Assembly (NCBI GenBank): GCA_024137785.1
Contig: JAHRHZ010000005.1
Location: 342,201-374,450, forward strand
Source: Ginglymostoma cirratum
Taxonomy: Eukaryota
DNA: 32,250 nucleotides
Direction: 5' to 3'
Shown here piece by piece: positions 2,025 through 27,500 of the stretch. The number at the start of each line of letters is the position of its first letter. Within the stretch, counting starts at the first letter, position 1. The notes beneath the pieces are model-generated. The model was not told the DNA's origin. It saw only the letters and a list, made by a program, of their open reading frames with translations, and searched no databases. A program made the translations under genes and the position numbers.

Positions 2025-2347
2025 TTACCTTATCTGAAACCGTTCCCTTAAAGGGTTGGTGAGAGACTCGTGTCTGACCTCACACATATACGTCTGAGTG
2101 GGGTCCACATCCACAAAGGCAATGGTCATCTGACTGACTGTACTGTAGGTCCCACTCACGTCCCTCACCACTGGGAAGTTGGTCACACTGCCCGGAACTT
2201 GCAAATCCCTCTCCGTTCTCCAGTTCACATAGATCCCGGCGGGATAGAACCCCGAAACAAAACACGCCAACGTCACAGCTTGTGGCCGACGGGAGTCACG
2301 TGACTGAACCTTGATGGGGGTTATCGTCGGTTGGAGGAAAATAAATT
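2025..2347 (-). CDS. C1-set constant domain exon 3 (ends in TAA overlapping a possible splice donor)
   Basis: Acceptor ctgcctgtaacag|. Translation EFIFLQPTITPIKVQ...VTLACFVSGFYP..VNW..GTYSTVSQM..YMCEVRHESLTNPLRERFQIR*. Confidence 0.92.
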
Positions 2348-5300
2348 CTGTTACAGGCAGAGATAAAACATTTCAATCAACAGACATTTTCCCTTAAGGT
2401 CAACGCCACTGTTAACTCTACCTGAGCATTTTTATTGACTCACTGGGCCTCGTTGTCTTCACAAAAACAAAATCAGCCAGAGACACGTTTACCTCATTCA
2501 GTCGACAAAGCAGGATCACTTTGGCTGCCTGACATAGACCTGACCTGTTACTGAATTCGACTCACAGTTACAGGAGGTCGGTGGACAAATATCAAGCAGA
2601 ACATGTAACAGGCAGTCAATGCCTGAACATGAGAGCAGATGTGCAACAGGCAGTCAATGCCTGAAAATGAGACGAGGTGTGTAATAAGCGATCAGTGCCT
2701 GAATGTGAGGTGGGATTTGTAGCAGGCAGTCAGTGCCTGAATGAGAGGGGATATGCATCAGGCGGTCAGTGCTGAATATGAGAGGGAATGTATAACATGT
2801 GGTTAATGCCTGAATATGAGATGAGATGTATAACAGGCAGTCAGTGCCTGAAAATGAGAGCAGATGTGCAACAGGCAGTCACTGCCTGAATATGAGAGGT
2901 GGTCAGTGCTGAATATGCAAGGGAGTGTATAACAGGCAGTTAATGCCTGAATATGAGTGGTGTATATAACTGGTGGTCAATGCACAAATCTAGGTATTTT
3001 TTTATCAAATGTCTGAGATGCAATTCAATCTGATTGTTAGAACAAAAGCAGTTGTACCAGCAGCGATTTTGCACCATTTATAACAACTGATCGTTTATGT
3101 ATTTGGGAACTTAGACTTGCTCAGCTCACAATTTCTCTGATAACTGTACATTTACAACTTGTTCTCCAGCCAACAAACCCATACATTTACCGCCTGTTCT
3201 CCATTATCCTGATACTTGTATGTTTACTCCAAGTTCTATCCTGATACCTGTAAACCTATTACCTGTTATTCACCAACACCCCTGATACTTGGCCATTTAC
3301 TGGCTGTTCTCTATTACCCCGATACCTGTACATATAATGCCTGTTCTCTTTTATCCTGATAACTGTACATTTATCACCTGCTCTCCATTACACTGATACT
3401 TCTATATTTCCTGCCTGTTCTCTATTATCCTGACACCTGTATATTTCCTGCCTGTTCTCTATTATCCTGACACCTGTACATTTACTGCCTGTCCTCTATT
3501 ATCCTGATACCTGTACATTTACTGCCTGTCCTCTATTATCCTGATACCTGTATATTTACTGCCTGTCCTCCATTATCCTGATACCTGTATATTTACTGCC
3601 TGTCCTCCATTATCCTGACACCTGTAAATTTACTGCCTGTCCTCCATTATCCTGATACCTGTATATTTACTGCCTGTCCTCCATTATCCTGACACCTGTA
3701 TATTTACTGCCTGTTCTCTATTATCCTGACACCTGTATATNNNNNNNNNNACCTGTATATTTACTGCCTGTTCTCTATTATCCTGACACCTGTATATTTA
3801 CTGCCTGTCCTCCATTATCCTGACACTTGTACATTTACTGCCTGTTCTCTATTTTCCTGACACCTGTATATTTACTGCCTGTCCTCTATTATCCTGACAC
3901 CTGTACATTTACTGCCTGTCCTCCATTATCCTGATACCTGTATATTTACCGCCTGTTGTCTATTTCTCCGATATCTACATCTATTCTCCTCTCCCAGTAT
4001 TTCCGTGCACTGATCACTTGTTATCCATCCATCCCCCACCTAATCTGATATCCCTGCCAATGTATTCCGTGATCAAGTCAGAGATGTATCGATCGAATGG
4101 CCTAATTGTGGAAGAACACCTGGTTAGTTTGCAATGGAACAGCAAGGGGGTAAAAAGAGAAACCCTGAAATAGTACTGCCTTACCCCGGGTTTTATTGAT
4201 GGTTTGAATGATGCTGTCTGGGACTGACATGTGCTGAATCTCACAAGTGTATTCTGTACCCCGGTTCCACATTTGATCAGATGTGGTCAGTTCACTCTGG
4301 GAGGAGTAGGTGCCGTTGATATTGAGAATTGGTGGGTAGATCTTGATGCTGTCGACCACCGGATTGCCATTGATGAACCAATGGAAAGAGATCTCCGCTG
4401 GGTAGAAGCCAGTTGCTAGGCAGACCAGGGTTGCTTTTTCCATTGTGACGAGCTCTTCTAAAGTCGGTGACAGGAGATACAGCTTTGGCTCCATGGGGTA
4501 CCGCTCTGTGTAACAATCACAACTGAGTCTGTCTCAGAGTAAAGTGGCAAATCACCAAGGTATCCTGGCAAGAAAGGCCATACTAGGAGATTCACACTGA
4601 GATCCAGTGGCCATGAGGCTACCACTACCATTGAAATGATGGACATGCAGCAATGGGCCATCTCATGTCACTTGATCCTCTGATATTGTACTGTCTGTGT
4701 GGTGCAGCAGTAGTGTCTCTACCTCTGAGATAGGAGACCCAAGTGACTGACTATCCATCTGACTATTTTCCCATGATGGTGTCAAGTTGTTCCTGGAATG
4801 ATTCCAGTACTTGAGACCCATTCACCTTCCTCACAAGGCAACGAGATTGCCCTCTTTGCAAGGAAAGTATTTTTTGAATGCATTCATGAAGACGCATGAG
4901 GGGGAATCTCATAGAGATTTATAAAATTGTAACAGGGTAGATGCAGGGAGGATGTTCTTGATGGTGGGTGTGTTCAGAACCAGGGGTCACAGTCTGAGGA
5001 TTCGCGGTAGACCATTTAGGACAGAGATGAGGAGGCATTACTTCACCCAGAGAGTGGTGAGCCTATGGAATTCATTACCACAGGAATTAGTTGATGCCAA
5101 AACATTGAACGTATTCAAGAGGTGACTAGATATAGCATTTGGGGCGAATGGGATCAAAGGTTATGGGGAGAAAGCAGGATTAGGCTATTGAGTTGGACGA
5201 TCAGCCATGGTTGTGAAGAATGGCGAAGCAGGCTCAAAGGGCCGAATGGCCTCCTCCTGTTCCGATCTTCTATGTTTCTATGTAGCCATTGCCCTGAAGA

Positions 5301-8300
5301 AGGTGGAGAGACTGATGAGCTGCCTTCTTGAACTGTTGCAGTCCTTGGGATATAGGAACACTCACAATGATGTTTGGAAGGGAGTTTCAAGATTTTAATG
5401 CAGTGACACTGAAGCAATGGCGACATATTTTCAAGTCTGATTCCAGCACTGCTGTATTAAGAGAGACCATTTATTCAATGGAGTTTAGAAGGGTGAGGAG
5501 TTATCTCATTGAAAGTTATGAAATTCCACCAGGACTAGACAGGGTAAACACAGAAGAATGTCCCTGATGTCCAGGAGTCCAGAGCCAGGGGTCACAATTT
5601 AAAAATATTTCATATTTTTTTCATGGAATCCCTACAGTGTGGAAACAGCCCCTTCGGCCCAACAAATCCACACTGACCCGCACACCATCCCACCCAGATC
5701 CATCCCCGTATAATCCACCTAATCTACACATCCCTGAACACTACGGGCAATTTAGACTGGCCAATCCACCGAGCCTGCACATCTTTGGACTGTGGGAGGA
5801 AACCGGAGCACCCGGAGGAAATCCACGCAGACACAGGGAGAATGTGCAAACTCCACACAGACAGTTGCCCGAGGGTGGAATTGAACCCAGGCCCCTGGTG
5901 CTGTGAGGTAGCAGTGCAAACAACTGAGCCACCATGCTGCTCATATGGGGTACATATGGGTATACCATTTTGGATTGAGATAAGGAGAAATCTCTTCACC
6001 CAGACAGTGGAGAGCCTGTGGAATTCTCTGTCACAGGAATCGGTTGTGGCAAAAAAAAACTGAATGTTCTCAAGAAAGTTTGTGGCTAAAGGGATCAAAG
6101 GGAATGGGAAGATAGCAGGAACAGGGTATTGAGTTGGATGATCAGGCATGATCATATTGAATGGCACGGTGGGCTTAAAGGGCTGAAACGGCCTGCTCCT
6201 GCTCCAACATTTTGTAGTTCTATGTGAGTGACTCAGAGGGGAACTTGCAGGGTGTGGTGTTCCCATGGGTCTGCTGCCTCATGATGGAAGTGGTCGTGGA
6301 TTTGTAAGGTGCTCTCTGAAGACCCTTGGTGAGTTGCTTGAGTGCATCTTGTAGATGGTACACACTGCTGCTACTAAGTGTTTGTGGATGGGAACGTGGA
6401 TGGTCAATCGAGTGGCTGTTAATAGGCTGTGTCATCGTTTGCATTGTCCTGATATCCAGGTATGAGATGAGGAAAACTGGCAAGAAGCTCTGTGTTGTTG
6501 GAAATCATTTTGGGGAGAGGAGTAGGGGTGAAGTGTGGGCACTGGTGCCATTTGGAATGGGCTGTTTGAATTCAATGAAATTGGAATGAGCAGGTGAATC
6601 TGGTGAGAGAGAAGGGTTTAGGCCCGAAACGTCAAGTTTTCCTGCTCCTATGATGCTGCTTGACCTGCTGTGTTCATCCAGCCCCATGCTTGTTATCTCG
6701 GATTCTCCAGCATCTGCAGTACCTTTCATCTCTGAATCTGGTGAGAAATAGCTTTGCCAAAATCAGTAAAAACCACACAGTGTGTGACTTACCAGTGTTA
6801 CTTATGTGCTTGATGATGGGAGAAGGCAGTGCCCCATGTGATACTTGGCAGCTGATAATAGATCCTTTGATCCACTGGGATGTATTGATCACCAGCTTAC
6901 TGATCGCTGTGTAGGTGCCGTTGTCTCCCAAAAGTGAGGCAGAATGCGAGACCCCTCTGTGGACCTGCTCACCATCAACACGCCAGGAAAATGAGAGGTC
7001 GTCCGGGTAAAAGCTTTCTGCCGCACAGAGCAGCGAGATGTTCTTCCGGAGAAAGACATCCTCAGGGTGTGGGTTTTGGAAATAAACCAACGGAGGAGAC
7101 ACTGAGGGAGCTGAAATGGAAATGAATCTGTTACTAAGTGGCCAACAAGTTAATTACGGCCTGACACTGATATTGCCAAGATTCACTGCGCCAGGTTCAA
7201 GCTCCTCTGTCATGTTCAAAGGTGGCAAGATATTATCCTGGTGGGCCTCAGGAGCCAAGGTGCAGATTCGCGTGGCACGGTGGACCTCCTGGGATGGGAT
7301 TGCAGTCACCCGAGCTCAGCTAGAAGGATGTAACAGTGTGAGACACAGATTCAGAGTGGGCACTCTCTGTTCATTCCTGGAATGAGGGAGGTTAGACAAT
7401 GAGGAGAGGTTGGGGCAGACTGTGTCCGTAACATTGGGATTTAGAAGAACGAGAGGCAAACTTATTGAAGACTCGGGGGTGACTGGAAGAGGTGTCTACC
7501 CTGAGGAATAGGGTTGGGGGAAGACCAGAACCTGCGACTCAGTTTAGGAATAAAGGGGTCTCCCATTTCAAATGGAGCTGAGGAGAATTTCCTCTTTCAG
7601 CTGATGCTAATTCTGTGGAACACTCTTCCCCAGAGAAGAGTGGAGGCTGAGCACTTGAACAGTTTCAAGGCTGAGTGACTGTAAGAATGGCAGATTAGGG
7701 AGGCAATGATTATTGGAGGAAATGAAGCCAGGAATTTGAAGTTCTTTCAACAACCAGATCGGCCATGATTGTACTGGTGAGTCTGTAAGACCCGATTGGG
7801 CCGAATGGCCTGATTCTGCTCCCATGTCCTGTGTTTCTAATTGATACAGTGACTCAAAGGACCCAGACAATCAGAAGGCAGAGGTTAGCCTGTGATTCTG
7901 GTCCTGATGATTGCCCAGTGACCCATCTTGAAAATTATTTGATGGTGGGTTGGTGAAAAAGGCCAGATGAGATCGGAATATCAGGCCTGTTTAAATAGGA
8001 ACAGGAGTTGGCTTTTCGCCACTCCACTCCACTCCTGGGCCTTCTCACTGGTCAGAAACCCCTGTCAGATTGAGCAGATTGCCTCATGGGAAAAGGGTGG
8101 ACAGGTTCGGCCTGTATCCTCAGGAGTTTAGAAGATTCAGGTGTGACTTAGTCGAAACATATAAGATCCTGAGGGGACTTAACCAGGGGAATGTGGAAAG
8201 GATGTTTCCTCTTGTGAGAGGATCTAGAACTCAGGGTCAAAGTTTAAAAATAAGGGGCCGCCTGTTTAAAACAGAGAGAGGAAAGAGTTTTTCTCTCAGA

Positions 8301-11300
8301 GGGTTGTGAGTCGGTGGCGTTTCCTTCCACAAAAGGCAGTGGATGCAGAACCTTTAAATGTTTATAAAGCAGAGGTAGAGAGATACTTGATTGATACTGA
8401 CAGATTGAATGATTATCAGGGATAGGTGGGAAAGTACAGCTAAGGTCAAAATCTGATCAGCCACGGTCTTAGTGAATGGTGGAGCAGGATCAAAGTGCTT
8501 GTATATTTGTTGGGTAATTAGCTAATATACCATTGCAATAAGGTGGGAAGCACTGGGATTCATTTGGGAACAGCTCTGTGGCTGAGGTAGGGAGGTTGAG
8601 AGTTTAAAGTGCGCCTGCTGAGAGATGTTCACACAAGCCACTCCTGTGCCACACTCTGAAAGGTCGCTGGGTACAGACATTCAGGGCAGCAGGAGGAGGG
8701 GTTGTGTTTGTACAGGGTGTTGCAATTAAATGCAGAGCCAATTCAGTTTTTCCTGGCCCAGGGTCTGTTTCGTAGACAAACGGGAAGTGAAAATGTGTTC
8801 TGTCAGAGGCCTGTGGAGTAAGCAACGATCAACCTCTGAATGCAGCTTAGTATAAAAAGACGTTTAGCACGCTTGCCTTCATTTCTCAGTCCTTTGAGTA
8901 AAGCAGTTAGGAAGTCATGTTAAGGTTGTACAGGACATTGATGACGCCTGTTCTGGAAAACTGTCCGGTTCTGTTCGCCCAGTTATGGGAAAGATATCAT
9001 TAAGCTGCAGAGGGTTCAGAAGACGTTCACCAGGACGTTTCAGGGTATGGGTCGTTTGAGTTAGAAAGAAAGGCTGAACAGGCTGCAACTTTTTTCACTG
9101 GAGCATAGGAGGTTGAGAGGCGACCTTATAGAAGTTTATAAAATAATGAGAGGTATACATAGAATTAGTGGTCTTTTACATAGAATCCTTTCCCTAGGAT
9201 GGGGGATTTCAAGACAAGGGGGCAAATTTTTAAGGTGAGAGGAGAGAGATTTAAAAAATGACATGAAGAGCAAATTTTTTACACCGAAGGTGGTTTGTGT
9301 GTGGAATGAACTTCCTGAGGAAGTGGTGGATGTGGGTACAATTACGACATTTAAAAGATCTTTGGATAAGGATATGAATAGGAAAGATTTGGAGGGATAT
9401 GGGCCAGGAGCAGGCAGGTGGGACTAGTTTTGTTTGGGATTATGGTCAGCATGGACTGGTTGGACCGAAGGGTCTGTTTCTGTGCGGTATGACCTGATTG
9501 AATTTTAATGTTGGTCAGGACACCAAGACCATCCCATTCACAGGTAGAATGGGGCCCCAGGACAAGACTGCAGCAACAGGATAGCGAGATTCAACTCACA
9601 AACATTTGAAGGCTGGCACCCTTGACCAGGCAGCACCACTTTCCACTCCCACCTTGACACTGTCCCAGTGAATCACGTGATGAAGTTCTGTCAGACAGCA
9701 AGGCATAAGAAGAGACAGGGTCAAAAATGACCTACCTGCTTTAACAGTGAGCGTGACTCCACATCCGCTCCAGTCTGTGCTGAATGGGAAGTAAGTGTTG
9801 GAGCTGCCACAATAATATCTGGCTGAATCTTCTTGTCGGAGACCTTTTATTGTCAGTGAGAACTTCTTGCTGGTCCAGTCCTTTGAGCCAATGAAGCGAT
9901 CGCTGACCACGGACGGGTAAAGAGCAGCACTCGATCCCGGCATCCAGTAAAGAATCCACGAGATCATGAGATCTCCCGGCTTGGCGGATCCCCAGATGAG
10001 GTAATAATTATCCACAGTCCTGGAGGTGAAACAATTCAACGTCACTGTTTCATTTTCCCAGCGACTCAGAGATATGGGCGAGATATAGAGAGTGTCATCA
10101 GCTGTCAAAGGGCCTGCAAGGAAAAAGCCCACATTCATGAGTCAGCTCACCGTCAACCAGACTTAAAGTCATTGGCAAAGGTGCCAAAGAAATGCTGAAT
10201 TGTTTGTTTTAATGCGGCGAGTTATAGAATTAAGTAGGTGTTGCATTTATATAAAGTGTATTTCACAACCATCAGGCTCCTCCAAGTACTTGAAAGCAAT
10301 GGGCTTCTATCCACACGGGACTGAAACCCTACTCTGTAAAAAATTCTCCTGAACATATTTCAGGAACACATGGCTTTGTCTGCTCTTCATGCTGAAACTG
10401 TCCCAGTCTACATTTGGATAGTTTCATTTCGTCTGCTCTAAAATTCTGTCATTTCCTTGCAGATTTGTCCCTCCATACCTTTCCCGTTGCCAGTTCCCTG
10501 TAGAATACACCATACAATGTAATGATTCTGCTGTCATCCCCTAACTCTAACCAAACATATTCTGTCCTTGATGCTTCTGTCCAACACTGTCATGTTCAGA
10601 TTTGCCTCCCTTTTTGCTTTCATTCCTTCCCATCTTTCTTAGAACAGCTTGTATCCAGGAATGTTCAACACCCAGTTCTGCCCTTCCCAGATTCAGGTCT
10701 CCACTGTTGCCCCATCATCAGATTTCAATGGGACTAACTGTCCCAGTAACCTGGGAATCATATTTATCACACACTATTCATGCACAGTAAACTAAATTTG
10801 GTTTATTCCACTCCCGTTTACTGTGACCTCAATCCTGTTTATGATCATTTCCTCCTTTAATATTACCTGTCTTTGCCAAATCACTGTGTATCTTTCATCT
10901 CCAGTATTACTTCCTAGTTCGCCCAACACTGCCATGTTTGTTTAACCTCTACCCGATATGCAAGCTGCCTCACAAGGATCTCAATGCTATTTTTCTCAGA
11001 AGCAAACGGTCAGGCCTGAGCTCACCCCAACAGCCAATGAATCCAAAAACCTCCCTCCTGCACCAACCCTCCAGCTGTGCTCTGAGTTGCTCCAATCTCC
11101 TATTTCTGCATCCACTGGCACCTTGGGGATGCCCTATGGGTTACTCTGTTTGAAATCCGGTTTGCTGATATCTTCCTCAGCTCCCTAGGCTCTACCCTTA
11201 TCCTACTTTCAGGGGAAAATGGGAAAGGTATAGAGGGACAAATCTGAAAGAAAATGAGAATCAGAATGACAGAATAAGCAGCGGAAATGAGGGACTTGAA

Positions 11301-12031
11301 CTATCTGAATCAAGACTGGGATAGTACGAGCAGAAAGGGCCATGGGTTCCTTAAGTGTGTTCAGGAGGGTTTTCTACAGAGTATGGGACCCAGGGTCTGC
11401 TGCATCTGGTTTTGGAGAACAAATTGGAAGACGTGGAATGGGACTGCAGAATGCTTACAGCACTGTACGTGGCTATTTGGCCCAAATTTTCCACGTGGGC
11501 CTTCCACAACAGGAATTTAGTTTGGCCCATTTCCCCACCATTCCCCTCCACCTTACCCCAAAATACTGCAATTTTATTTTCTCTTTGCTTAATTGTCCAA
11601 TTCTCTTTCAAAAGCTGCAAAGTACGACAAATCAGTGTTTACTCTGTACTTGAGCAAGGATTTAGGATCGAGAGTCTAACCCCGAACCACACCCAAAAAC
11701 TAGAAGCTCTCCGCTCCCCACCCGCCTCCTCCCCAAACTCTGTCTCTGCTCCCCGCTCGGTGAGCCCAGCATTCATGAGGAGGGGTGAGGGTGTGGAGAC
11801 AAGACCAGGTGAAGACAGACAGGGTCACGCTCCCCTCTGTCTCCCATCGCTCTCTAGGCCCACGTCCACCTTTGGTGAGGACCAACATTGACCCATTGTC
11901 CCATTAAGACTCACGTGCTTCCGAGAGGGCCAAAGAGAAGGTGAAAGGGAGGAGAAAAATCAAAGAGGCCAACGACACCTACTAGGTAGCCTACCTGCAA
12001 GGGCAGCGAGCAAGAACAGAACTTGCCACAT
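2025..12031 (-). CDS. UrIg: Non-rearranging immunoglobulin-like gene, L-V(J)-C1-C2-C3, 458 aa, probably secreted (UrIg or UrIg-like). join complement(11995..12031, 9736..10113, 6793..7110, 4185..4505, 2025..2347)
   Basis: Five exons with canonical GT-AG sites, all introns phase 1, summing to 37+378+318+321+323=1377 nt with no internal stop. Signal peptide, one V-set domain with built-in J motif and three C1-set domains. The name comes from recalled properties of shark UrIg (non-rearranging V plus C domains, no TM), not from an alignment. Confidence 0.8.
2590..2985. repeat. ~38-bp minisatellite (aacaggcagtcaatgcctgaatatgagagcagatgtgt)
   Basis: About 10 diverged tandem units in the C2-C3 intron. 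Confidence 0.88.
3140..3965. repeat. 37-bp minisatellite (tttactgcctgtcctccattatcctgatacctgtata) with an assembly gap at 3741-3750
   Basis: About 20 tandem units, near-identical between 3400 and 3950. Confidence 0.95.
4185..4505 (-). CDS. C1-set constant domain exon 2
   Basis: Acceptor gttacacag|, donor CGG G|gtaagg, 321 nt. Motifs: PKLYLLSPTLEEL, ATLVCLATGFYP, FHW, NGTYSSQSEL, YTCEIQH. Confidence 0.95.
4890..5285 (+). mobile_element. CR1-type LINE 3' end
   Basis: Contains agatgaggag..ttcacccagagagtggtgagcctatggaattc and a (ttctatgt)n tail. Confidence 0.8.
5620..5942 (-). mobile_element. tRNA-derived V-SINE (HE1-like)
   Basis: On the minus strand: A box tggctcagttg, B box ggttcaattcc, core gtgtggagtttgcacattctccc...ggtttcctcccacagtccaaaga, and a CR1-like tail. 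Confidence 0.85.
5960..6222 (+). mobile_element. CR1-type 3' fragment, continuation of 5470-5610 interrupted by the SINE
   Basis: EIRRNLFTQTVESLWNSL motif; the upstream part lies left of the SINE. Confidence 0.65.
6608..6732 (-). mobile_element. Penelope-like terminal repeat fragment
   Basis: Near-identical inverted match to 20912-21002 and 27575-27666; carries a hammerhead-like remnant, gaagggtttaggcccgaaacgtc. Confidence 0.65.
6793..7110 (-). CDS. C1-set constant domain exon 1
   Basis: Acceptor ccatttcag|, donor ACT G|gtaagt, 318 nt. Motifs: ISLLCAAESFYP, FSW, NGTYTAISKL, SCQVSH. Confidence 0.93.
7380..7840 (+). mobile_element. Old CR1-type 3' fragment
   Basis: Decayed tttagaag..gaggc..cttattga, tggaacactct and ggccgaatggcct..tctgctcc motifs. 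Confidence 0.6.
8070..8500 (+). mobile_element. CR1-type 3' fragment
   Basis: FGLYPQEFRRFRCDLVETYKILRGL...MFPL. Confidence 0.8.
8860..9495 (+). mobile_element. CR1-type LINE 3' fragment (V-C1 intron)
   Basis: Collinear with 28925-29560 and 17500-18115. Confidence 0.85.
9736..10113 (-). CDS. V-set domain exon including a J-like G strand
   Basis: Acceptor tttttccttgcag|, donor GCA G|gtaggt, 378 nt. Motifs: TVTLNC, IW, DRFIGS, FSLTIKGLRQEDSARYYC, WSGCGVTLTVK. Confidence 0.95.
11995..12031 (-). CDS. Leader exon (MWQVLFLLAALA-G) of the Ig-like gene
   Basis: ATG TGG CAA GTT CTG TTC TTG CTC GCT GCC CTT GCA G|gtaggc. Hydrophobic 12-mer with a phase-1 donor that joins in frame to the V exon (GPLTA/DDTL). 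A split leader is typical of Ig/TCR V genes. Too short for the ORF track. Confidence 0.85.
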
Positions 12032-12239
12032 TCTTTGAGCTCTGCGGCAAATTCTTCGCAAATGGCAATCTGTAATTAGCTTTGGATCTTAGGCCTGTTT
12101 GAGATGACTGAGAGGCATTTGGTTGCCTCCGAGTGGTTCAGTGGCTCAACTGAAAGTAAGACAGAGTTGGCTGCTGAATATTGACCTCCCGTGGACCCCT
12201 CCCCAGTCTGATCCACTTATTGCAACAGACTGTTGTACA

Positions 12240-24087: not shown

Positions 24088-24540
24088 ATGGCATCAAGAG
24101 AGCAGGCGGAGGGCCTGAGCAAGTACCTGCAGTGTGGCCTGTGCCGGGAGCTGTTCCAGCAGCCGGTCATCCTGGAGTGCGGCCACAACTTCTGCCGGGG
24201 CTGCATCCAGAGCGAGTGGCAGAAAGGAGATGGGGGCGGCTGCTGCCCTGAGTGTCTAACCCTGTCCCGGGAAAGTAGCATCAAACTGAACAGGGCCCTA
24301 GCCAACCTGGCCGACAAGCTGAGGAACCTGAAGCCATCCCTGGAGCTCGCTCCTTGGGGAGAGAGTCCGGCAGAAGAGGGTGGGCTCGGGCTGTATTGCA
24401 GCGAGCACCGGGAGGAACTCAAACTGTTCTGTGAGACTGACCGACAGCTGATCTGTGTGATGTGCCTGGATGGCAGAGGGGGTCACAGTCACAAGTACCA
24501 CGACTTCATGCTCATCCATGAAGCTGTCGTCAAATACAAG
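24088..24540 (+). CDS. TRIM exon: RING (C3HC4) and B-box2
   Basis: CGLC...CGHNFCRGC...CPEC; CSEH...FCETD..ICVMC...HKYH; ends TAC AAG|gtaaag. Confidence 0.95.
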
Positions 24541-27500
24541 GTAAAGGAAAGTTTTAAAAAAGCAGTTTCTAAACACAGTGAGTGCGATTTTAACTCCGGG
24601 CGCAGTCGGATTTCTCGCCGAATTGATGCCTTTCTGAAGGAGAGGGCCATTCAGTCTTGCCCACATTTACCTTACTCTAATTGGTGTATTCAGATCGCCG
24701 GGCGCCCCCCCCCCACAACTCCGCCATTACCTTGAATTGAAGTGCAGAGGGTAGTGTCCTCTGCCCCTGTGCCAGGAGCTCCGGGTTCAAGTCCCGCTCC
24801 TGGACTTGATGCCCAAGGAAGCTGTTATCATAACACCGTTCCCAGCGAGTTGCTTATGGTTTAGTAGATCGTGTGGCACCGTGGTAGTGTCCACAGTTCT
24901 GGGCCAGGAGGCCTGGGTTCACGTCCCACCTGCTCCAAAGGTGCATCTTAACGTCCCTTGGTGATGGTCACTTTGTAAATCCTTCTACCACTGTGTCAAC
25001 GTTGGGGTGGTGCAAGGAAGTGAGATTCCTGGTGGACTGGGGTGGACAGGATGGGAAGAAACCAGCCACTATCTCCCCCTATCCCCCGATCTTTATCCAG
25101 AACTCGTCTATACAGTGCCTGTGAAGGTGTACATTACTCTGACCACTTAGAATTGTCATTACATTGAACTTGGGCCAAAAGTAGGCTGCTCGATACTTCG
25201 AGCCTAATCCACTGTTCAGTAAGATATGGCTGATCTGATTTTAACCTTATTTCCACGCTCCTCCCTACTCCCTACTCCCCCCACCCCCGCAATAATCTTT
25301 CATCCCCACCACCCTGCCCATGATATCAGCTTGCTTCTCCCCTCCAACCCCCATCCCACACAAATAAACATTTCTTCAAAAGAGACTGTTTTCACCTTTT
25401 GAGAGAAGGTTGAGTGGGGATCTGTTTGAAGTGTATAAGATTATGAGGGGCATGGACAGAGTGGATAGAAGGCATCTGCTCCTCTTGGTGGGGGGAGTTA
25501 AATAGCTTTATAAGGTGAAAGGTGGGAGATTTATAGGTGATTTGAAGGAAAATGCTTTCAGCCAGAGGGTGGTGGGGTCTGGAATGCACTGCCTGGGCAG
25601 TGAGAAACCGAACCATCTTTAAAAACTATTTGGATATGCATTTGAAATGTCATAACATTCAAGACTACGGGCCTGGAAGATGGGAATATTTTGCCCAGGT
25701 TGGTACAGATTCGATGAGTCGTTTCTGTACTTTGTGACTTTATGTCTCTGTCACCTTAGGAAAGACTGAAGACATCCCTGGACAAGCTGAGACAGAAGAT
25801 CATGGTCCTTGAAGCAAAGTTGAAAGAGAAACAGAGTATTTCGGAAATCGGAGTAAGTTTACTTGTTGCACACTCTCTGTCTGTCCTCCCACTCTATAAC
25901 CTGGTGTCCCACCGCTACACTCCATCTGCCTTGTTGTGTTGCTCTGTTCCCGCAGGAGAAATCAGTCAGTCTGCAGAACCTTATCTCGTCCGAATTCGCT
26001 AAAATGCACCAGTTCCTCAACAGAAAAGAAGAGAGTTTGATTCGAGAGCTGAAGGACCATGAAGACAACCTTTCAGGAGCGATGGAAAAGAACCTTCAAG
26101 AGATAAAAGGTCATTTAGATTCTGTTCGGCGGAAACTATCACGATTACACACAAAAATGGACCAGCAAGCATCAATCAACTTCTTGGAGGTACGAGGGGG
26201 TCATATGGAGTGGGGAAATATTTGTTTTTATCTGTAAGGTTTAAAAATTATAACAGCTTCAAAAATACTCAATGGAATGAATATTTGTGATTTTGCTTGC
26301 GTAGCACACAGAAACAAGTTCTTTGGTTGTTGAATGCACTGCCTGAGAGTGGTGGAGACAGCAGCTTCAGGTGAGGCATTCAGAATGGAATTAAACTGAA
26401 AAGGAAGATTGTGCAGGCTTACAGGAGAAGGCAGGGGGATGTTTGCTTGGACAGTGGGCCGAAAGATCTCCTTCTGCTCCTTCGCAATTCAGTGGTGAAT
26501 ACAATTCATGAAAAAAAACGACAAGTTGCCAAAAAAAAAGTGTGAAACAGGAACCTGTTAAAGTAGAATTCCTCAAACTGTTTTATAATTTCCCCAATGA
26601 GTTTTGAGTTCATCTGGCTCTCAAACATCATTCATTAATTAATACAGTTCTCTCTAAACATCTCTCTGCAGTACACAGTTTGTTATAGTTGTAACTTTCA
26701 GTGCCAAACTCATTATTTCATCAATCTGTTTAGGGATTTTGGGACACTCCTCTGGAGCAAGTGGGACTTGAACCATGGTCTCCCTGTTCAGGGGTATGGA
26801 CACTTCCACAGTGCCCCAAGAGCCCTCAGTGGCTTGATATAATCCTGTGCTATCACCCACCTGAACCTCGCTGAGATTGTGAATAGTGGGTTGGAGCTAA
26901 TTTCCCTGCTGAGAAAAGGCTGATGGAGCATGGACAGAAAAATGGAGTTAAGATTGCAATTAGATTAGCTGTGATTTTACGGAACAGTGCGGTAGCCTTG
27001 AAAGGCTGAATGTAATACAGGAGAATGGGTGGGAGACTGGTTTCATACCCTGTACAACTTTAGAATTCATTGAGTAGAATGAGAAACAAGTCTTGCACAC
27101 TGTTGCCTGATTGATGGGCAAAGTTAAGATTGCTCCCATGGTGGGGAGGCGATGGCCTAGTGGTATTATCGCGGGACTGTTAATCCAGAGACCCAGGTGA
27201 TGTTCTGGGGACCTGCTTTTGAAGCCTGCCACAGTAGATGGTTGAATTTGGATGCACTGAAAAATGACTGGAATTAAGAATCTAATGATGGCCATGAATC
27301 CGATGTCAATTGTTGGAAAAATCCATCTAGATCAGTAATGTCATTTAGGGAAGGAAACTGCCATCCTTACCTTGTCTGGTCCACATGTGACTCCAGATCC
27401 ACAGCAATGTTGTTGACTGTTAACTGATCTCTGAGCAAATAGGGACAGGCAATAAATGCTGGCCTAGCCAGCATCACCCTCAGCCCATGAATCAATAAAA

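What the first reader, a model, noticed from the sequence alone, without database searches (positions are those of the whole stretch)
9736..10113. V and J-like G strand in one uninterrupted exon with no RSS relics
Seen: YYC-GSSNTYFPFSTDWS-GCG-VTLTVKA runs straight into a phase-1 donor. I found no heptamer-12/23-nonamer in or beside the exon or in the unique parts of the following intron. The leader is split by an intron as in Ig/TCR V genes. Known: sharks also have RAG-derived germline-joined Ig genes, but these remain similar to conventional V families. Inference: the very divergent framework here argues for a never-split VJ exon, the kind of substrate the RAG transposon is thought to have invaded.
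Basis: partly seen in the sequence, partly recalled or inferred. Interest (0 to 1): 0.7.

Follow-up and report, generated by a model that had tools for sequence, protein, structure and literature searches.

The report
Known shark non-rearranging antibody gene UrIg
This exon is the variable tip of UrIg, an already published shark antibody-like gene that is used without DNA reshuffling and is thought to resemble the ancestor of antibody genes; the same genome also holds two seemingly undescribed relatives that are likely membrane-anchored.

Summary
Exon 10113-9736 encodes a whole V domain, G strand included. It is spliced leader-V-C1 in 4 of 4 runs, and C2 and C3 exons follow. The gene is already published as UrIg. 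The V domain reads letter for letter like the nurse shark UrIg V in fig. S2A of PMC12227049 (by eye), and it matches 116/121 residues of GCC18650.1, which that paper lists as UrIg. The 'never-split VJ' idea is that paper's own hypothesis. Missing RSS do not test it, because 3 of 3 germline-joined Ig loci in this genome lack them too. Better support comes from the tree and from a fixed 12-residue CDR3-like loop in 6 of 6 UrIg rows, but the tree has no outgroup. By-catch: contig C94 carries two further head-to-head single-exon VJ genes with UrIg-type C domains and predicted TM exons. They have orthologues in five other sharks and are distinct from UrIg2. I found no paper on them, but three key papers were unreadable. 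The scan had not noted either locus before.

The parts
11995..12031 (-). Leader exon coding part (12 codons plus 1 nt, phase-1 donor); transcribed 5' part reaches at least 12157
   Evidence: tblastn and pattern scan, boundaries, spliced contigs
9736..10113 (-). Single VJ exon: rest of leader plus complete V-set domain with G strand (the finding)
   Evidence: AlphaFold model pLDDT 89.4 with strand at residues 112-121
9773..9808 (-). CDR3-equivalent loop, 12 residues, fixed length
   Evidence: 12 residues in 6 of 6 UrIg rows; 8 of 12 columns invariant
9761..9763 (-). G-strand Cys (residue 130), the only cysteine beyond the four intradomain pairs; likely interchain disulfide
   Evidence: 9 Cys in the 458-aa protein; invariant in 16 of 16 family rows; UrIg2 V-V disulfides are on the G strand (PMC12227049)
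6793..7110 (-). Constant exon C1 (C1-set)
4185..4505 (-). Constant exon C2 (C1-set)
   Evidence: splicing not checked by reads
2025..2347 (-). Constant exon C3; read-through stop gives 458 aa, and a GT donor after 2029 may lead to an unfound last exon
   Evidence: splicing not checked by reads

Best explanation
The exon encodes the V domain of shark UrIg, an invariant leader-VJ-C1-C2-C3 protein made by ordinary splicing without DNA rearrangement, which is likely secreted as a two-chain, antibody-shaped dimer and likely acts as a fixed-specificity innate binder. Shown here: exon structure, leader-V-C1 splicing, no RSS, no close paralogue found in this assembly, fixed loop length, and strong V conservation. 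Reported in PMC12227049, which quotes the 2023 paper I could not read: secreted only, made in liver and not lymphocytes, disulfide-linked homodimer, found in extracellular matrix, MHC class III location. Inferred here: Cys130 in the G strand is the only spare cysteine, so it would make the interchain bond and pair the two V domains edge-to-edge through their G strands, as in the UrIg2 crystal, not face-to-face like an antibody Fv. Also inferred: the V domain is more conserved than the C domains, so it would bind one conserved ligand (a matrix component or microbial pattern; ligand unknown). The exon most likely descends from an unsplit VJ lineage that is sister to rearranging Ig/TCR genes.
For: Identity: V equal by eye to 'Gici_UrIg' in fig. 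S2A. P0005 = GCC18650.1 is listed as UrIg in the Methods and matches V 116/121, C1 94/106, C2 91/107, C3 95/106. Architecture. Four of five database orthologues end at C3 with no TM, and the fifth also ends there. No credible TM stretch in 22 kb downstream (5 hydrophobic stretches, judged by eye as repeat-derived or unconvincing). Synteny: TNF-family exons lie 230-290 kb away on the same contig, and a TNFSF cluster flanks UrIg in the white shark MHC table (PMC10751288 supplement). Selection: V identity exceeds every C domain in 5 of 5 orthologues (e.g. Triakis V 110/121, C2 68/107), and 4 of 4 V differences in run X12 are silent while 2 of the 5 listed C1 differences change the residue. Tree: UrIg, UrIg2 and the C94 genes stand apart from Ig/TCR V (96/93; 98/96 without the TCR row). 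An AU test rejects placing UrIg inside the VH clade, p = 0.039. The fold is a full V-set domain (Z 16.3, rmsd 1.9, 112 aligned to UrIg2 9dmx).
Against: The original UrIg paper was not held, so secretion, tissue and dimer claims are second-hand. No GoLoco (GPSM3-type) match was on this contig, although GPSM3 neighbours UrIg in white shark. The V tree warns that long branches meet and has only 7 comparators and no outgroup; the AU result is marginal. The fold search does not single out UrIg2: antibody VH/VHH chains score as high or higher (Z 17.6). Contigs drop rare variants, so they cannot exclude rare somatic change. No ligand evidence was obtained.
Confidence: 0.93

Rival explanations
1. UrIg is a very old germline-joined gene: RAG joined V and J in germ cells before sharks and rays split, and the gene then became fixed, so it is a product of rearrangement and not a relic from before it.
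For: Germline joining happens in sharks (PMC2193156, abstract and one Discussion section). Joined genes keep no RSS (3 of 3). UrIg V is 29-36% identical to Ig/TCR V, closer than UrIg2 is (20-23% for the whale shark row). The V tree is unrooted.
Against: Known joined genes stay close to split relatives (up to 99% in PMC2193156; 51-54% here). All 19 family V rows share a [W/F]-x-x-C-[G/A] G strand not seen in the comparators. Family C domains group by position apart from IgH/IgL C domains (80/85, 89/92, 87/97). The locus is in the MHC, not among Ig/TCR clusters.
Confidence: 0.2
2. [quoted passage not shown]
For: Database names; V-C1-C2-C3 layout like IgG; antibody hits dominate the PDB searches.
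Against: No V above 41% identity among 23 matches in the genome other than itself; identity with published UrIg; 71-100% V identity across sharks and a ray.
Confidence: 0.02

Closest known systems
UrIg (elasmobranch MHC class III; Flajnik et al. 2023, not read; described in PMC12227049 and PMC10751288)
   Same: V sequence equal by eye to nurse shark UrIg; split leader, single VJ exon, three C1-set exons, no TM found, TNF-family neighbours.
   Different: Nothing of substance. It differs from the whale shark model P0001 at 8 of 319 C-domain positions, and the last residue (R by read-through, S by splicing) is unresolved.
UrIg2 (PMC12227049; PDB 9dmx)
   Same: Single-exon VJ, G-strand cysteine, C1-C2-C3 order; the only single-stretch row among the 60 PDB hits shown (E 3.6e-17).
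   Different: 28-39% V identity; UrIg2 has repeated C domains, a TM, usually two G-strand cysteines, and lies with the IgH/TCR-alpha-delta loci.
Shark germline-joined Ig genes (PMC2193156; here L004, L005, L009)
   Same: V and J in one exon, split leader, no RSS.
   Different: They stay close to rearranging families and keep a canonical [FW]-G-x-G J motif; the window V is 33-35% identical to them.
PRARP and NCR3/NKp30 single-exon VJ genes (named in PMC10751288 and PMC12227049; details recalled)
   Same: Non-rearranging VJ exon in the MHC or its paralogous regions.
   Different: Membrane proteins with one or two Ig domains (recalled); not compared by sequence here.

Membership tests
UrIg | V sequence orthologous to published UrIg | tested here: met
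   By-eye identity to fig. S2A; 116/121 to GCC18650.1, listed as UrIg
UrIg | VJ in one exon with split leader, no RSS | tested here: met
UrIg | Three C1-type domains after the V | tested here: met
UrIg | Secreted only (no TM exon) | tested here: inconclusive
   No credible TM in 22 kb downstream and orthologues end at C3, but the 3' end was not read from transcripts
UrIg | Location in MHC class III | tested here: inconclusive
   TNF-family exons on the same 474-kb contig fit the white shark table; no GoLoco match there; no MHC gene shown on the contig
UrIg | Liver expression, extracellular-matrix location, disulfide homodimer | not testable with these tools
   Runs carry no tissue label; taken from PMC12227049
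UrIg2 | V orthologous to UrIg2 (50-60% or more across species), repeated C domains, TM | tested here: not met
   28-39% to 6 UrIg2 rows and a separate clade; three C exons only
RAG-made germline-joined Ig gene | Close similarity to a rearranging V family | tested here: not met
   29-36% to 7 comparators against 51-54% for L005; AU p = 0.039 against nesting in VH
Pre-RAG (never-split) VJ lineage | Branches outside all rearranging receptors in a rooted tree | tested here: inconclusive
   Separate from Ig/TCR V but no outgroup, long-branch warning

The most novel reading that the evidence does not exclude
The UrIg family has a third, undescribed branch. Two single-exon VJ genes lie head-to-head about 6 kb apart on G000:C94: gene A is L-VJ-C1-C2-C3-TM and gene B is L-VJ-C1-C3-TM. 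They are conserved in carpet sharks, catsharks and a smooth-hound, separate from UrIg and UrIg2, and on a contig where no other C1-set exon was found. In the boldest form they build a non-rearranging two-chain membrane receptor, a living model of the paired pre-RAG antigen receptor, and their map position would test the proto-MHC origin scheme. I put the undescribed paralogue pair at about 0.6 and the heterodimer at about 0.25.
Probability: 0.55. Interest if true: 0.65.

Novelty: already known. Interest (0 to 1): 0.3.

Why it matters
The finding is a rediscovery of UrIg with the published interpretation, so it adds little beyond two small points: missing RSS are not diagnostic, and the G-strand Cys is the only candidate for the known interchain bond. 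The value lies in the by-catch. The current model of antigen-receptor origin rests on two relics, UrIg in the MHC and UrIg2 beside IgH/TCR-alpha-delta. Two further predicted membrane-bound paralogues at a third place would double the family. They would also allow a test of whether the pre-RAG receptor was a homodimer or a paired receptor, and whether all relics map to MHC-paralogous regions.

Tried and rejected
Papers not held: the 2023 UrIg paper and a PMC id recalled for the 2019 'primordial immune complex' paper. The PRARP paper did not appear in a search and was not read. No RNA holder was listed as such, and run tissues are unknown. Splicing of C2, C3 and the 3' end was not checked on reads; a pattern search for a last exon giving Ser-stop found none in 22 kb. 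dN/dS could not be computed (no orthologue DNA); only 9 listed differences of one run were classed. The synteny of C94 is unresolved. Pfam scans of 132 of 418 and 60 of 397 filtered open stretches in 380 kb found a P450 exon, an intronless actin-like gene and a LINE endonuclease. Proteasome, PBX, TNF and GoLoco searches put no match on C94, and 'cyp26', 'PRARP' and 'actl7' are absent from the PMC10751288 supplement. A UrIg2 orthologue was not found in G000 (only the best candidates are scored, so this is no proof of absence). One C-domain row was mis-cut; one search repeats that tree correctly and is the one cited. Rejected: conventional or recently joined Ig; UrIg2; the C94 genes as UrIg2 orthologues (whale shark and cloudy catshark carry both kinds).

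Full report
Observation. The three plus-strand frames are closed; the exon is on the minus strand. It runs 10113-9736 between an AG acceptor and a phase-1 GT donor and encodes a V-set domain (Pfam E 3.5e-10). The AlphaFold model (16-row alignment, pLDDT 89.4) has a G strand at residues 112-121. tblastn and boundary checks give the gene as leader 12031-11995, V, C1 7110-6793, C2 4505-4185 and C3 2347-2025, 458 aa by read-through. Contigs of 4 of 4 runs laid on 6700-12200 join leader to V and V to C1 at these places.

RSS. No heptamer-spacer-nonamer with 4 or fewer mismatches lies in 7100-12100; 200 shuffles give 0.21 sites at <=3 and 1.3 at <=4. The scan works, since 4 of 4 rearranging V loci from the same genome have a site with 0-1 mismatch. 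But 3 of 3 germline-joined Ig loci from that genome (two light-chain-like, one VH-like, classed by their sequence) have no site at <=3 either. Missing RSS therefore show that the gene does not rearrange now, not that it was never split.

Identity. The gene is UrIg. The PDB search returned UrIg2 (9dmx) as the only single-stretch row of 60 shown. PMC12227049 (main text parts 1-5 of 8 read; supplement PDF part 1 of 2; table S1 part 1 of 2) prints the nurse shark UrIg V, which reads the same as the window's 121 residues by eye. Its Methods list GCC18650.1 as UrIg; that is P0005, with 116/121 identities in V. The whale shark model P0001 is identical in V and differs at 8 C-domain positions; I did not determine the window's species. 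Two TNF-family exons lie 230-290 kb away on the same contig, as a TNFSF cluster does beside UrIg in the white shark MHC table (PMC10751288: passages; supplement rows). No GoLoco match was on the contig. The original 2023 paper and its supplements were not available and may already hold points I infer below.

How it likely works. Shown: it is a spliced, invariant gene with no close paralogue found (best other V in the genome 41%). The CDR3-like loop is 12 residues in 6 of 6 UrIg rows with 8 of 12 columns invariant, while the CDR1- and CDR2-like stretches are less conserved (4/10 and 4/14). V is more conserved than each C domain in 5 of 5 orthologues, and 4 of 4 V differences in run X12 are silent. 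Reported second-hand in PMC12227049: secreted only, liver-made, matrix-associated, disulfide-linked homodimer. Inferred: the protein has nine cysteines, eight in the four canonical pairs, and the ninth (Cys130, in WSGCG) is invariant in 16 of 16 family rows. In the UrIg2 crystal the V domains pair through A and G strands with G-strand disulfides. Cys130 would thus make the interchain bond, and UrIg would show two identical fixed V domains on an Fc-like stalk. A conserved ligand is the likeliest reason for the V conservation; none is known.

Never split or joined long ago? The window V is 29-36% identical to 7 Ig/TCR comparators, whereas a true germline-joined VH keeps 51-54% to rearranging VH; PMC2193156 (abstract and one Discussion section) reports up to 99% for joined light chains. 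In the V tree the 19 UrIg-family rows stand apart from Ig/TCR (96/93; 98/96 without the long TCR row), and an AU test rejects UrIg inside the VH clade at p = 0.039. Against over-reading: few comparators, a long-branch warning, no outgroup, and a fold search in which antibody VH/VHH chains score as well as UrIg2. Recent joining is excluded; joining before the shark-ray split is not (about 0.2).

By-catch. The genome search gave two full-length V matches on contig C94 (41% and 38%). Gene A (minus; V 1509198-1508884) is followed by C1, C2, C3 and a TM-like exon. Gene B (plus; V 1515744-1516070) is followed by C1, a C3-like exon and a TM-like exon, with no C2 found. Both have a split-leader candidate and no RSS at <=3 mismatches. 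A profile search of 1.84 billion representatives (best 150 listed) and two word searches gave orthologues in Chiloscyllium, Rhincodon, Mustelus, Scyliorhinus torazame and S. canicula, under automatic or hypothetical names; the three-domain form of B is conserved (P0010, P0160). Whale shark holds UrIg, UrIg2 and B, and cloudy catshark holds UrIg2, A and B, so these are not UrIg2. They form their own clade (89/90, unstarred) beside UrIg2 (99/97), and their C domains group by position with UrIg/UrIg2 and not with IgH/IgL (80/85, 89/92, 87/97, none starred). No ray or chimaera orthologue turned up among the 13 hits I examined (those with a stretch reaching the end of the profile). Expression was not tested. 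A complex prediction of the two V domains gave weak support: score 0.59, best control 0.02, run agreement at least 79%, partner pLDDT at least 74, one of three runs 0.19. The mark was reached by 51 of 78 solved and 2 of 108 mismatched pairs, but at 0.60 or under by only 5 of the 78 and by all 4 mismatches that passed, and the solved UrIg2 V dimer could explain the pass from memory. Searches 'urig3' (0 papers), 'urig'+shark+MHC (3 listed) and searches found no description, and 'GCC32115' is absent from the main text of PMC12227049. The 2023 UrIg, PRARP and 2019 comparative papers were not read, so 'undescribed' is provisional.

Earlier scan notes. Nothing near this place and no sequence look-alikes for UrIg or gene A. 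One note (e1-9299208) describes another shark VJ-C1 receptor cluster, SIRP-like by its own account; I did not test it.

Verdict. Observation confirmed; interpretation matches the published hypothesis; the gene is already known. Interest 0.3, mostly for the C94 pair, which deserves its own follow-up.

Noticed in passing
G000:C94:1501700-1527700 (L002, L003, L019-L021): Head-to-head pair of single-exon VJ genes with UrIg-type C1-set exons and TM-like exons (A: V-C1-C2-C3-TM; B: V-C1-C3-TM), with orthologues in five other shark species; candidate UrIg3/UrIg4, no description found.
   Followed up: partly
L019:2317-2625 and L021:3405-3704: The C3 exons of genes A and B are nearly identical although their V and C1 domains are far apart (V 36%), which suggests gene conversion as reported for UrIg2 repeats.
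   Followed up: no
window 2025-2029, minus strand: C3 ends at a possible phase-2 donor just before the read-through stop; three database orthologues end in Ser (spliced form) and one in Arg (read-through). The last exon was not found.
   Followed up: partly
window 24088-26234, plus strand: TRIM-type gene (RING, B-box, coiled coil) divergent from UrIg, about 12 kb upstream of its leader.
   Followed up: partly
P0004 (stingray model XP_059827057.1): The database model fuses a TRIM RING/B-box/coiled-coil part to UrIg V-C1-C2-C3; probably a gene-model error joining a neighbour, not checked.
   Followed up: no
L005 (G000:C130:2494304-2494639): Germline-joined VH exon with a Cys just before the WGRG J motif; used as comparator.
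   Followed up: partly
L025:2982-3635 minus (G000:C94, about 35 kb from gene B): Cytochrome P450 exon, CYP26-like by recall only; best PDB sequence hits are weak.
   Followed up: partly
L036:9522 to L037:775 plus (G000:C94, about 130 kb from gene B): Apparently intronless, divergent actin-like reading frame.
   Followed up: partly
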